The position numbers were made by a program, and so were the translations under genes. Shown here piece by piece: positions 60,785 through 61,852 of a stretch of DNA of 64,000 nucleotides. This DNA is from a virus: positions 21,828 to 85,827 of IMG/VR virus record IMGVR_UViG_3300027971_000039, one strand, 5' to 3'. Position 1 is the stretch's first letter, and the number at the start of each line of letters is the position of its first letter. The notes below the pieces were generated by a model. That model was not told where the DNA came from and did no database searches. It saw nothing but the letters and a program-made list of their open reading frames with translations.

Positions 60785-60832
60785 AAATTAACATCATATA
60801 ATTGTGTCAATCAGTTTCATCCCATTTAATGA

Positions 60833-60845
60833 TATCAACGACTTA
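60833..60845 (+). promoter_or_regulatory. IHF binding site
   Basis: TATCAACGACTTA is an exact match to WATCAANNNNTTR. Confidence 0.55.
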
Positions 60846-61040
60846 CAGAGTGACAAATTACCTTTACACTAAGACAATATACAAAATAAACCCTATTTGT
60901 TGATATAACGCACATACAGGGTGTTTCTGTAATAGTTGTTAACTAATCTAATTGTGTTTCTAGAATATATATTAAAAATTCGCGGATGGGCTTGGCTAAC
61001 GCTATCGCACTCACAAAGTACCCTACCCCCCCCCTCCTCC

Positions 61041-61056
61041 TGGCATACTTCCTGCT
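61041..61056 (+). promoter_or_regulatory. sigma54-type -24/-12 motif
   Basis: TGGCATACTTCCTGCT (GG-N10-GC). Confidence 0.5.
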
Positions 61057-61108
61057 ACCTGCAATCCCCATACCTCAACTCAACCAGTTGAATAAACTGA
61101 ACTAGTTG

Positions 61109-61124
61109 TGGCATGCCGTATGCA
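61109..61124 (+). promoter_or_regulatory. sigma54-type -24/-12 motif
   Basis: TGGCATGCCGTATGCA (GG-N10-GC). Confidence 0.55.
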
Positions 61125-61282
61125 AGAAAGATTTTAGCACTAAATCGAATCGGTTGAATTTAGCCCTCTATTATATACAGGGTAGAACTAAACGGGAATG
61201 GTTTAGGTGGTGTCGAAGACCTTGACAGTGTCGATAAGTTCTACAGGGTGTTTGAATGGTGTGGCATGGGGAAGTCTAATGA

Positions 61283-61316
61283 TATCAGGTATTTAGACGT
61301 TGGCATGGCTGCTGCA
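61283..61316 (+). promoter_or_regulatory. IHF site plus sigma54-type -24/-12 motif
   Basis: TATCAGGTATTTA (61283-61295, WATCARNNNNTTR) then TGGCATGGCTGCTGCA (61301-61316). Confidence 0.6.
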
Positions 61317-61395
61317 GTGATCGGTAGCATGACGATGCAGTCATGGGATAGCACTAGATTCTCTCTCTCTCCTCTAGTGTTAACTCTCTCCTCTC

Positions 61396-61458
61396 TCCCG
61401 AAATACCCCACGGACGGGGTATCGTTGGCGGATGGTTCCCGCTAACCTGACGATGGGA
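61396..61458 (+). ncRNA. type II hammerhead ribozyme 1, predicted cleavage after C61423 (AUC)
   Basis: UCCC-GAAA-UACCCC/GGGGUA-UC-GUUGGCGG/CCGCUAAC-CUGACGA-U-GGGA; loop I GGUU can pair with AACC 61459-61462. Confidence 0.85.
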
Positions 61459-61659
61459 AACCCTTTGCATGAGTTGGTCTTCGTGCATCGTATAAGATAG
61501 ACAAGCGATCGCGTGGCACTATGCCTGACGATTGCGCCGATAGGGTACCATGCTACAGCCTTAACTGGCTATGCTTTAACGCCCTATTGCCCCCGATAAG
61601 ACGGTTACTGGTCCGGGGAATAGCCGATAATAAACGGTAGAAAGTCCGTTGCATCGGAG

Positions 61660-61724
61660 TAGGTTCGAAACAATTCCAGGAATGGAATTGTCGCAAGGAT
61701 TAACCTTGCCTGATGATGAACCTA
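61660..61724 (+). ncRNA. type II hammerhead ribozyme 2, predicted cleavage after C61692 (GUC)
   Basis: UAGGUUC-GAAA-CAAUUCCA/UGGAAUUG-UC-GCAAGG/CCUUGC-CUGAUGA-U-GAACCUA. Confidence 0.92.
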
Positions 61725-61741
61725 AACAAAGAGGATATATC

Positions 61742-61852
61742 ATGAAAAAACAAATTGACGCCATCGAATCCGAACTAAACTCTAATCTCTTTAATTTAAC
61801 TTTAATCGTCTGCGGTGTTTTAATTCTTTACTGCATTAAGTTTTACGCTTAA
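61742..61852 (+). CDS. small membrane protein (36 aa), first gene after the ribozymes
   Basis: AGAGGA RBS then MKKQIDAIESELNSNLFNLTLIVCGVLILYCIKFYA. Confidence 0.6.
   Translation: MKKQIDAIESELNSNLFNLTLIVCGVLILYCIKFYA

What the first reader, a model, noticed from the sequence alone, without database searches (positions are those of the whole stretch)
61396..61724. Tandem type II hammerhead ribozymes heading the early operon
Seen: two complete hammerhead cores on the + strand, each in the order stem II-GAAA-stem III-UH-stem I-CUGANGA-stem II. Their stem sequences are unrelated but fully paired, and both carry the same extra U between A9 and G10.1. Known: this order defines type II hammerheads, a one-base insertion at that position is tolerated in natural hammerheads, and cleavage leaves 5'-OH and 2',3'-cyclic phosphate ends. 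Inference: conserved cores with different stems point to selection on both, so the first transcript of the + strand block is cut twice (after 61423 and 61692) before any protein gene.
Basis: partly seen in the sequence, partly recalled or inferred. Interest (0 to 1): 0.9.

Follow-up and report, generated by a model that had tools for sequence, protein, structure and literature searches.

The report
Two hammerhead ribozymes bracketing a phage RNA
Two genuine-looking self-cutting RNA motifs (type II hammerhead ribozymes) sit 269 bases apart in the untranslated leader of a freshwater phage's replication-gene block and bracket a conserved folded non-coding RNA; this is a good new example, with some unusual details, of an arrangement known in phages since 2011.

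Summary
Observation confirmed. Both motifs are complete type II hammerheads at the stated coordinates, with cuts predicted after C61423 and C61692. My descriptor finds only these two in the 85.8-kb genome. 200 dinucleotide shuffles gave a mean of 0.045 hits, and none at their stem lengths.

All 4 other contigs carrying the region keep both cores. The only core change is at the free position N7. Five base pairs show compensatory changes. Hammerhead 1 (HH1) has relatives in unrelated phage contigs; 2 of 3 also carry the extra U.

Evidence against: Rfam scores HH1 at 31.7 bits (threshold 37) and does not detect hammerhead 2 (HH2). Rfam also misses 5 of 6 other descriptor-positive phage type II hammerheads, and the sixth is below threshold. 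Cleavage is untested.

New here: the pair brackets a conserved five-hairpin non-coding RNA, not a gene. The 350-bp unit (61381-61730) keeps its edges while its flanks differ between relatives. A CU tract at its 5' edge is predicted to mask the downstream ribosome site; this is suggestive only.

Clustered hammerheads in phages have been known since Perreault 2011. This scan has reported tandem phage hammerheads on other DNA several times. Verdict: a new variant of a known kind, moderate interest.

The parts
60939..60966 (+). Sigma-70-like promoter candidate (TTAACT-16-TAGAAT) at the AT-rich start of the leader. The TAGAAT box is conserved in relatives.
   Evidence: 9 of 12 matches; consensus scan only; alignment of leaders. 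Tentative.
61041..61316 (+). Three sigma-54-like -24/-12 motifs (TGGCAY-N7-GCW) at 61041-61056, 61109-61124 and 61301-61316. These are candidate promoters upstream of the cassette.
   Evidence: they are the only 3 matches in 64 kb on both strands; 4 in L005, 4 in L006 and 5 in L072, all upstream of HH1. Function not tested. No activator gene (PF00158) in the phage.
61381..61399 (+). CU-rich tract at the 5' edge of the conserved cassette. Its last 4 bases are the stem II 5' strand of HH1. UCCUCU at 61389-61394 is predicted to pair with the Shine-Dalgarno AGAGGA at 61730-61735.
   Evidence: tract kept in all relatives, including L072 where the upstream sequence differs; pairing; control.
61396..61462 (+). 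Hammerhead 1, type II: stem II 61396-99/61455-58; GAAA 61400-03; stem III 61404-21; U61422; C61423 (cut after it); stem I 61424-46; CUGACGA 61447-53; extra U 61454. Candidate pseudoknot between loop I GGUU (61434-37) and tail AACC (61459-62).
   Evidence: (RF02276, 31.7 bits, E 1.3e-4 in 501 nt).
61424..61692 (+). Predicted 269-nt excised RNA with a 5'-OH and a 2',3'-cyclic phosphate. It starts with the HH1 stem I hairpin and ends with the HH2 stem III hairpin.
   Evidence: Follows from the two cut sites. Fold -96 kcal/mol, z -3.77, 0 of 200 shuffles as good.
61466..61657 (+). Conserved non-coding body with five predicted hairpins: a 61466-87, b 61505-35, c 61536-90, d 61591-618, e 61624-57. 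A CCGAUA(A/G) word recurs at the 5' side of hairpins c, d and e.
   Evidence: 52 pairs, 3 with compensatory changes, 2 broken cells. (a further G-C to A-U change at 61626/61655 in one X3 contig). (no Rfam family, no tRNA or tmRNA). The internal 39-aa ORF loses its ATG in L005 and L006.
61661..61723 (+). Hammerhead 2, type II: stem II 61661-66/61718-23; GAAA 61667-70; stem III 61671-90; U61691; C61692 (cut after it); stem I 61693-709; CUGAUGA 61710-16; extra U 61717.
   Evidence: (z -6.06). No Rfam hammerhead match.
61693..61852 (+). Predicted 5' end of the processed mRNA: 5'-OH G61693 in a 6-bp hairpin, a 49-nt leader, AGAGGA at 61730-35, ATG at 61742, and a 36-aa hydrophobic peptide gene (61742-61852).
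   Evidence: no Pfam family for the peptide. The 5' end is inferred, not observed.

Best explanation
This is a 350-bp portable cassette (61381-61730) in the long GC-rich untranslated leader of the phage's + strand (replication/early) gene block. It consists of a CU tract, hammerhead 1, a conserved five-hairpin non-coding RNA of about 200 nt, and hammerhead 2. Both hammerheads are type II, and each has a bulged U between A9 and G10.1.

Once transcribed, each ribozyme folds into its three-way junction and cuts itself by internal transesterification, after C61423 and after C61692. That gives three pieces:
1. A leader fragment that ends in the HH1 stem III hairpin with a 2',3'-cyclic phosphate.
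2. A 269-nt RNA with a hairpin at each end.
3. The mRNA, which starts with a 5'-OH inside a 6-bp hairpin, 49 nt before the first start codon.

Inferred consequences:
- The mRNA gets one defined 5' end, protected from 5'-end-dependent decay, whichever upstream promoter fired.
- A stable structured RNA is released.
- Possibly, the downstream ribosome-binding site is freed from the CU tract that pairs with it in the uncut transcript.

Shown: the motifs, their conservation and covariation, and the fixed cassette edges. Inferred: cleavage in vivo and all downstream effects.
For: **Motifs beyond chance.** The real genome has 2 hits. Shuffles gave a mean of 0.045 relaxed hits and 0 strict hits in 200, and 0 in 3000 shuffles of the leader.

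**Conservation.** All 4 other IMG/VR contigs that hold the region (L005, L006, L007, L072) keep both motifs. The block 61299-61730 is about 88-90% identical while 61036-61299 is not alignable.

**Covariation in 4 distinct sequences.**
- 43 pairs, 97.1% of cells paired.
- 5 pairs have changes on both sides: 1 in HH1 stem I, 2 in HH2 stem II, 2 in HH2 stem III.
- Slid controls gave 0-1 such pairs and 27-54% of cells paired.
- The only core substitution is at N7. In one low-depth X5 contig, H17 changes from C to A, which is still an allowed H.

**HH1 lineage elsewhere.** A search with the stem III pattern found 5 new contigs. Three of them are full type II hammerheads with unrelated stems I and II, and 2 of those 3 carry the extra U. 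L091 also keeps the GGUU/AACC pseudoknot words. Counts: 23 pairs, 11 with changes on both sides, 0 of 500 shuffles as high.

**HH2 stem I elsewhere.** It recurs in 28 other contigs, of which 3 are type II hammerheads with different stems II and III.

**HH1 pseudoknot layout.** It matches the type II design described in Perreault 2011, where loop I pairs with the tail right after stem II (passages).

**Fixed cassette edges, variable flanks.**
- An ORF lies upstream of HH1 in L072.
- A 180-nt insert lies after HH2 in L006 and L007.
- A 470-nt insert lies after HH2 in an X3 contig.

**Folding.** The full leader's minimum-energy and centroid structures contain both hammerheads and a helix between UCCUCU (61389-94) and the Shine-Dalgarno sequence. 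The ensemble probability of this masking is 0.85-1.0 in win, L005 and L006. In L072 the same helix is in the MFE, but its probability was not computed over the ribosome site.
Against: - No cleavage data exist.
- Rfam: HH1 scores 31.7 bits, below the gathering score of 37. HH2 matches no hammerhead model even at E<=10 in an 86-nt search.
- The extra U sits beside the A9/G10.1 region of the core. Its effect in a type II context is untested.
- HH1 uses an AUC triplet before the cut. The abstract of PMC1636495 calls AUC essentially absent from the natural hammerheads then known, and poor at co-transcriptional cutting.
- HH1's isolated fold is only weakly better than shuffles (z -1.93). L005's HH1 minimum-energy fold lacks the 3-bp stem II.
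- No clear tertiary contact was found for HH2.
- Covariation rests on only 4 closely related sequences. In one search, stem III was fixed by the search pattern, and the rows were kept because they passed my descriptor.
- The ribosome-site masking is weakly specific. With random 41-mers of the genome in place of the tract, 11 of 59 still gave P>=0.5.
- The function of the 200-nt RNA is unknown.
Confidence: 0.75

Rival explanations
1. The payload is the point. The two ribozymes exist to release the 269-nt RNA, which a host RtcB-type ligase then joins into a circle. This would be a phage circular non-coding RNA.
For: - Hammerhead products have exactly the ends that RtcB joins (established biochemistry, recalled).
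- The RNA is conserved, strongly folded (z -3.77) and has covarying hairpins.
- The cassette travels as a unit.
- Perreault 2011 raised spliced or circular products as a possibility, but detected neither (passage).
Against: - No junction evidence exists.
- No helix brings the two ends together beyond a 3-bp closing stem.
- The phage encodes no RtcB.
- The two ribozymes differ, so this is not a rolling-circle unit.
- In the joined form, the chimeric hammerhead would have only about 3 weak stem II pairs (read from the sequence).
Confidence: 0.1
2. The motifs are inactive relics or purely structural three-way junctions of a regulatory leader. The extra U and the AUC triplet disable or greatly slow cutting.
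For: - Sub-threshold or absent Rfam scores.
- An insertion in the core.
- AUC is unfavourable co-transcriptionally (abstract).
- This scan has met hammerhead-like junctions that were not ribozymes (item 6, unchecked note).
Against: - Every one of the 13 consensus core positions is kept in both motifs in all copies. Variation is confined to N7, H17 (C to A) and paired stem positions.
- A U at the inserted position raised activity in a viroid hammerhead (passage).
- Independent phage hammerheads carry the same U.
- Rfam also fails on canonical-looking phage type II hammerheads.
Confidence: 0.1
3. Cleavage is mainly a switch. In the uncut transcript the CU tract (and the C-rich, G-poor leader, a possible Rho loading site) silences the first gene. 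Cutting disconnects them and turns expression on.
For: - A helix between the CU tract and the ribosome site appears in the minimum-energy and centroid folds.
- Its probability is 0.85-1.0 in win, L005 and L006 despite their different ribosome-site contexts. L072 shows the helix in its MFE only.
- The tract stays at the cassette edge even where the upstream sequence differs.
- GC skew is strongly negative at 60900-61200.
Against: - Any purine-rich ribosome site tends to pair with a CU-rich strand. 11 of 59 random replacements also masked it, and the site was paired with something 70% of the time in the controls.
- Hammerheads are usually fast and unregulated, so it is unclear what the switch would sense.
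- The Rho idea has no direct evidence.
Confidence: 0.15
4. Chance resemblance: two hammerhead-like strings in a GC-rich leader.
For: No Rfam match at the gathering score.
Against: Shuffles, conservation and covariation.
Confidence: 0.01

Closest known systems
Type II hammerhead ribozymes of bacteria and phages (Perreault et al. 2011, PMC3088659, passages read; Rfam RF02276)
   Same: - Same core, and the same circular permutation with stem II open.
- Short stem II.
- For HH1, a loop I to 3'-tail pseudoknot directly after stem II.
- Phage context.
   Different: - One extra U between A9 and G10.1 in both motifs.
- HH1 has AUC before the cut.
- HH2 has a 6-bp stem II and no evident pseudoknot.
- Both fall below Rfam's gathering score.
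Clustered hammerheads flanking genes in prophages (Perreault 2011, passage; de la Pena 2017 review PMC6155905, passage)
   Same: Several different hammerheads lie close together on one phage transcript. They are thought to process long transcripts.
   Different: The described pairs flank ORFs or short gene blocks. This pair flanks a conserved non-coding structured RNA, and the start codon of its only internal ORF is lost in relatives.
Plus-strand hammerhead of chrysanthemum chlorotic mottle viroid with an extra residue A10 (De la Pena & Flores 2001; seen only as a reference title and through a passage in PMC3705267)
   Same: An extra nucleotide between A9 and G10.1 that is tolerated. A U at that place was reported as faster in trans.
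   Different: That is a type III viroid ribozyme with an A. Here there are two type II phage ribozymes with a U.
Synthetic ribozyme insulators (RiboJ) and ribozyme-guide-ribozyme cassettes
   Same: A self-cleaving ribozyme gives a promoter-independent mRNA 5' end that starts with a hairpin. Two ribozymes release an RNA with defined ends from a longer transcript.
   Different: Those are engineered, and they use type III hammerhead or HDV ribozymes that are removed from the product. Here, halves of the ribozymes stay on the products as terminal hairpins.
Viroid-like and retrozyme circular RNAs with hammerheads (PMC7761336 and PMC4918200; search listing and abstracts only)
   Same: A few-hundred-nt structured RNA bounded by hammerhead cut sites.
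   Different: Those have identical ribozymes in repeats and replicate or retrotranspose. Here there are two unrelated ribozymes, one copy per genome, and no evidence of circles.

Membership tests
Hammerhead ribozyme | Conserved core: C3 U4 G5 A6 N7 G8 A9, G12 A13 A14, the A15.1-U16.1 pair, and H17 (not G) | tested here: met
   Both motifs have every core residue, and all copies keep them. There is one departure: an extra U after A9 in both.
Hammerhead ribozyme | Three helices meeting at the core, with pairs directly next to it (10.1-11.1, 1.1-2.1, 15.1-16.1) | tested here: met
   - HH1: G61455-C61399, G61424-C61446, A61403-U61422.
- HH2: G61718-C61666, G61693-C61709, A61670-U61691.
- The minimum-energy folds give the junction.
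- 97.1% of cells are paired across 4 sequences.
Hammerhead ribozyme | Helices supported by covariation | tested here: met
   - 5 of 43 pairs have compensatory changes; slid controls give 0-1.
- 11 of 23 pairs in the wider HH1 set. There, stem III was fixed by the search pattern and the rows were chosen with my descriptor.
Hammerhead ribozyme, type II | Stems I and III closed by loops, stem II open | tested here: met
   Order: stem II strand, GAAA, stem III hairpin, UH, stem I hairpin, CUGANGA, stem II strand, in both motifs.
Hammerhead ribozyme, type II | Tertiary contact between stem I and stem II, commonly a pseudoknot of loop I with the tail after stem II (Perreault 2011) | tested here: inconclusive
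   - HH1: GGUU 61434-37 pairs with AACC 61459-62 in 4 of 4 cassette sequences and in L091.
- L005 and L006 trade one stem II pair for a fifth pseudoknot pair. No true covariation is seen.
- HH2: no convincing partner found.
Rfam RF02276 (Hammerhead_II) | Covariance-model score at or above the gathering score of 37 bits | tested here: not met
   - HH1 scores 31.7 bits.
- HH2 has no hit at E<=10.
- Of 6 other descriptor-positive phage type II hammerheads, 0 reach 37 bits and 1 scores 33.4.
Hammerhead ribozyme | Site-specific self-cleavage giving 5'-OH and 2',3'-cyclic phosphate ends | not testable with these tools
Viroid-like or retrozyme circular RNA | The same ribozyme repeated at both ends of the unit, and circular or multimeric forms | tested here: not met
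   The two ribozymes have unrelated stems. There is one copy in the genome. Circular forms could not be looked for.

The most novel reading that the evidence does not exclude
The cassette is a natural, portable 'ribozyme-RNA-ribozyme' device with two proposed effects. Self-cleavage releases a stable 269-nt structured phage RNA with its own function, for example as a protein decoy built on its repeated CCGAUA hairpins, possibly after circularisation. It also unmasks the ribosome-binding site of whichever gene recombination has placed downstream, and gives that mRNA a protected 5' end.
Probability: 0.25. Interest if true: 0.65.

Novelty: new variant of a known kind. Interest (0 to 1): 0.42.

Why it matters
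What clustered hammerheads do in phages has been open since they were found in 2011. This locus is a clean test case:
- Two different ribozymes with a shared unusual core insertion.
- A conserved non-coding RNA between them instead of a gene.
- Fixed cassette edges with swapped flanks.
- A testable prediction that cutting sets the mRNA 5' end and may free the ribosome site.

It also shows that Rfam's type II model at its gathering score misses this and several other phage hammerheads. Phage ribozyme counts based on that threshold are therefore underestimates.

Tried and rejected
- **RNA evidence.** The look-up of sequencing runs listed no RNA holder, so expression and cleavage ends could not be examined. 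The four runs laid were DNA contigs only.
- **More relatives.**
  - A 19-mer of the central RNA found only the 4 known IMG/VR contigs.
  - The same 19-mer gave 10 unrelated chance matches in JGI metagenomes.
  - A 24-mer found nothing in genome contigs, so there is no host clue.
  - The neighbouring 173-aa protein gave 2 new contigs (L083, L086). Both end before the cassette position.
- **The genome search with RF02276.** It found nothing in the own genome. In 50 related records it found one 21.7-bit site. It missed HH1 in G005-G007, so its first look is too coarse here. The other 17 loci were not searched this way.
- **A third hammerhead.** The word CCUGACGAU at 61524-61532 is one strand of hairpin b, and no conserved GAAA partners it. 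The GAAA at 61640 is lost in L006. Rejected.
- **tRNA, tmRNA or a known RNA family in the leader.** None found.
- **A small protein inside the excised RNA.** The 39-aa ORF's ATG is AAG in L005 and L006. Rejected.
- **Antisense target.** One 15-nt perfect complement lies in a + strand gene of the phage (E 0.027). It has no counterpart in G006, whose RNA differs at that place. Rejected as chance.
- **Joint model of HH1 and HH2.** MAFFT misaligned the two, so no covariance model was built.
- **Literature.** Searches found no description of a type II hammerhead with a residue between A9 and G10.1, nor of a hammerhead pair bracketing a non-coding RNA in a phage. These were few, word-based searches. 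One search timed out. De la Pena & Flores 2001 is not held.

Full report
**Setting.** The window is the last 64 kb of an 85,827-bp IMG/VR virus record that CheckV rates as complete.
- Genes on the - strand from about 10.7 kb to 60.8 kb of the window include the large terminase, the portal and a tail fibre.
- The + strand block starts at 61742, runs off the record's end and resumes at its start. It includes a DNA polymerase. The genes just downstream include a GP88-family protein and a WYL_2 protein.
- The two blocks diverge from a 956-bp gap with no plausible gene (60785-61741). From about 60970 this gap is 45-53% G+C, against about 30% around it.

**Observation.** Both hammerheads are present exactly as described. 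Part-by-part coordinates are in the parts list.
- HH1 spans 61396-61458 and is cut after C61423. HH2 spans 61661-61723 and is cut after C61692.
- In both, stems I and III are hairpins and stem II is open, which makes them type II.
- In both, stem II pairs properly only if one U after A9 is left out of the helix.
- A descriptor I wrote (core words, three helices, 0-1 inserted base) finds only these two sites in the genome on either strand.
- 200 dinucleotide-preserving shuffles gave a mean of 0.045 hits, and none with stems as long as the real ones. 3000 shuffles of the GC-rich leader gave none.
- Each motif alone folds into the junction. HH2 does so convincingly (z -6.06). HH1 does so only marginally (z -1.93, with 9 of 200 shuffles as good).

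**Rfam.**
- At gathering scores the window yields only a tRNA.
- With permissive settings, HH1 matches Hammerhead_II at 31.7 bits against a threshold of 37 (E 1.3e-4 in 501 nt). The alignment shows the bases after A9 as an insertion.
- HH2 matches no hammerhead model, even in an 86-nt search at E<=10.
- This counts against formal membership of RF02276. However, the model is narrow. Of 6 other phage type II hammerheads found by my descriptor, one scored 33.4 bits and five were not reported at E<=1. A gathering-score scan of 20 related loci found nothing, including the three type I candidates.

**Relatives.**
- The GP88 neighbour gave 63 loci and the 121-aa neighbour gave 4. Only the three close ones (L005, L006, L007) hold the cassette. 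A 19-mer search added L072.
- All four keep both ribozymes.
- The block 61299-61730 is 88-90% identical, while 61036-61299 does not align.
- In the 4 distinct sequences (L007 equals L006 here and was left out), 43 pairs are 97.1% paired.
- Five pairs changed on both sides: U-A to C-G in HH1 stem I, two in HH2 stem II, and two in HH2 stem III. Slid controls gave 0-1 such pairs.
- With four related sequences the shuffle control is weak, as the tool itself warns.
- The only core substitution is N7 of HH1, which is the one unconstrained position. The extra U never varies.
- DNA contigs of other runs add three observations: the same stem I compensatory change; a G-C to A-U change in hairpin e; and, in one contig of depth 2.7, AUC changed to GUA at the HH1 cut site, which keeps H17 an allowed base.

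**Wider lineages.**
- *HH1.* A pattern that fixed only GAAA, the HH1 stem III and UC found 5 new contigs. Three of them (L090, L091, L092) continue into a full type II hammerhead with entirely different stems I and II. L089 and L093 do not, and were dropped. L091 and L092 have the same extra U. L091 also has the GGUU loop and the AACC tail.
- Counting pairs on these three plus three cassette copies gave 11 of 23 pairs with changes on both sides and 0 of 500 shuffles as high. Stem III invariance there is by construction, and the rows were kept because they passed my descriptor.
- *HH2.* A pattern fixing HH2's stem I and the core found 28 new contigs. Three are type II hammerheads without the insertion. 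The other 25 look by eye like type III hammerheads, with a stem II hairpin and GAAA downstream. I did not score those 25.
- Both ribozymes therefore belong to widespread phage hammerhead lineages. The extra U recurs in the HH1 lineage.

**What lies between the ribozymes.**
- The 269-nt product folds well (-96 kcal/mol, z -3.77).
- The consensus structure has five hairpins and 52 pairs. Three pairs are compensatory and two cells are broken.
- It matches no Rfam family, tRNA or tmRNA.
- Its only ORF loses its start codon in L005 and L006.
- A CCGAUA(A/G) word recurs at the 5' side of three hairpins (read).
- Its function is unknown. An antisense lead did not survive a check in G006.

**A module with fixed edges.**
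- In L072, a 67-aa ORF with its own ribosome site lies between the last promoter-like motif and HH1. Similarity to the window starts at 61381, at the CU tract.
- Contigs of X3 and X6 have L072-like sequence before 61384.
- Downstream, similarity stops at 61730-61731. L006 and L007 have about 180 nt with a small ORF there. An X3 contig has 470 other letters there. L072 has a different peptide gene.

**Mechanism.**
- Because the ribozymes are type II, each cut leaves a hairpin at both new ends.
- The mRNA would begin with a 5'-OH in the GCAAGG/CCUUGC hairpin, 49 nt before ATG 61742.
- That 5'-OH ends and 5' hairpins slow 5'-end-dependent decay is established knowledge that I recall. It was not tested here.
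- Folding 61317-61760 puts both hammerheads in the minimum-energy and centroid structures. It also encloses the cassette in a helix between UCCUCU (61389-94) and the Shine-Dalgarno AGAGGA (61730-35).
- The ensemble probability of that masking is 0.85-1.0 in win, L005 and L006, although their ribosome-site contexts differ. For L072 the same helix appears in the MFE, but my script's range stopped short of its ribosome site.
- The control is sobering. With random 41-mers in place of the tract, 11 of 59 still masked the site at P>=0.5, with a mean of 0.22 against 0.95 for the real tract. I therefore treat unmasking by cleavage as a suggestion only.

**Literature.**
- Perreault 2011 (passages) describes type II hammerheads, the loop I to tail pseudoknot, and multiple hammerheads flanking genes in prophages. 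It looked for circular or spliced products and found none.
- The 2017 review (passage) says the same of neighbouring motifs flanking small ORFs.
- PMC8782182 (abstract and passages) showed three type II hammerheads active in Desulfovibrio vulgaris, near phage-like genes.
- PMC3705267 (passage) reports the extra A10 of the viroid hammerhead and the faster A10U variant.
- PMC1636495 (abstract) reports that AUC was essentially absent from the natural hammerheads then known.
- Earlier notes of this scan had flagged the same promoters, the 5'-end idea and the circle idea on this window, and several tandem phage hammerheads on other DNA. I treated these as leads only.

**Verdict.**
- The kind is known.
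- The distinctive points are the shared extra U, the non-coding payload, the portable cassette and the possible ribosome-site masking.

Noticed in passing
window 61041-61056, 61109-61124, 61301-61316 (+); L005, L006, L072 upstream of HH1: TGGCAY-N7-GCW words with sigma-54 -24/-12 spacing occur only here in 64 kb (3 matches). They are more numerous and closer to the consensus (for example TGGCAC-N5-TTGCA) in relatives: 4, 4 and 5 copies. The phage has no PF00158 activator gene. I found this, before reading the scan's own note on it.
   Followed up: partly
window 60916, 61177, 61243 (+); L006, L072: The word ACAGGGT occurs 3 times, only in the leader (0 of 100 shuffles reach 3). The form TATATACAGGGT is kept in L006 and L072, and as TATATACAAGGT in L005. 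Meaning unknown.
   Followed up: no
window about 61000-61100: A C-rich, G-poor stretch includes a run of 9-10 C that is conserved in relatives. GC skew is about -0.29. It is a possible Rho loading site in a 770-nt untranslated leader.
   Followed up: no
L054:2924-2985, L055:2927-2988, L067:3896-3960: Type I hammerhead candidates with compensatory differences lie in short gaps between + strand ORFs, just before or one gene before distant GP88 homologues. None reaches Rfam's gathering score.
   Followed up: partly
L094-L121 (28 IMG/VR contigs): The HH2 stem I (GCAAGG/CCUUGC) next to CUGANGA recurs in many phage contigs. Mostly these look like type III hammerheads, and 3 are type II. One stem I lineage therefore seems to exist in two circular permutations.
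   Followed up: partly
window 61730-61742; L006, L007; one X3 contig: The junction right after the cassette is an insertion hot spot. It holds about 180 nt with a small ORF in L006 and L007, 470 other letters in an X3 contig, and a different peptide gene in L072.
   Followed up: partly
L094:2555-2629 (-): A weak tmRNA/tRNA-like match (20 bits, E 4.7e-4, far below the gathering score) in an unrelated phage contig.
   Followed up: no
window 61536-61640: Three hairpins of the excised RNA start with a CCGAUA(A/G) word. Two of them share a layout: 5-bp stem, A-rich internal loop, second stem, 8-nt loop. This is a possible repeated protein-binding site.
   Followed up: no
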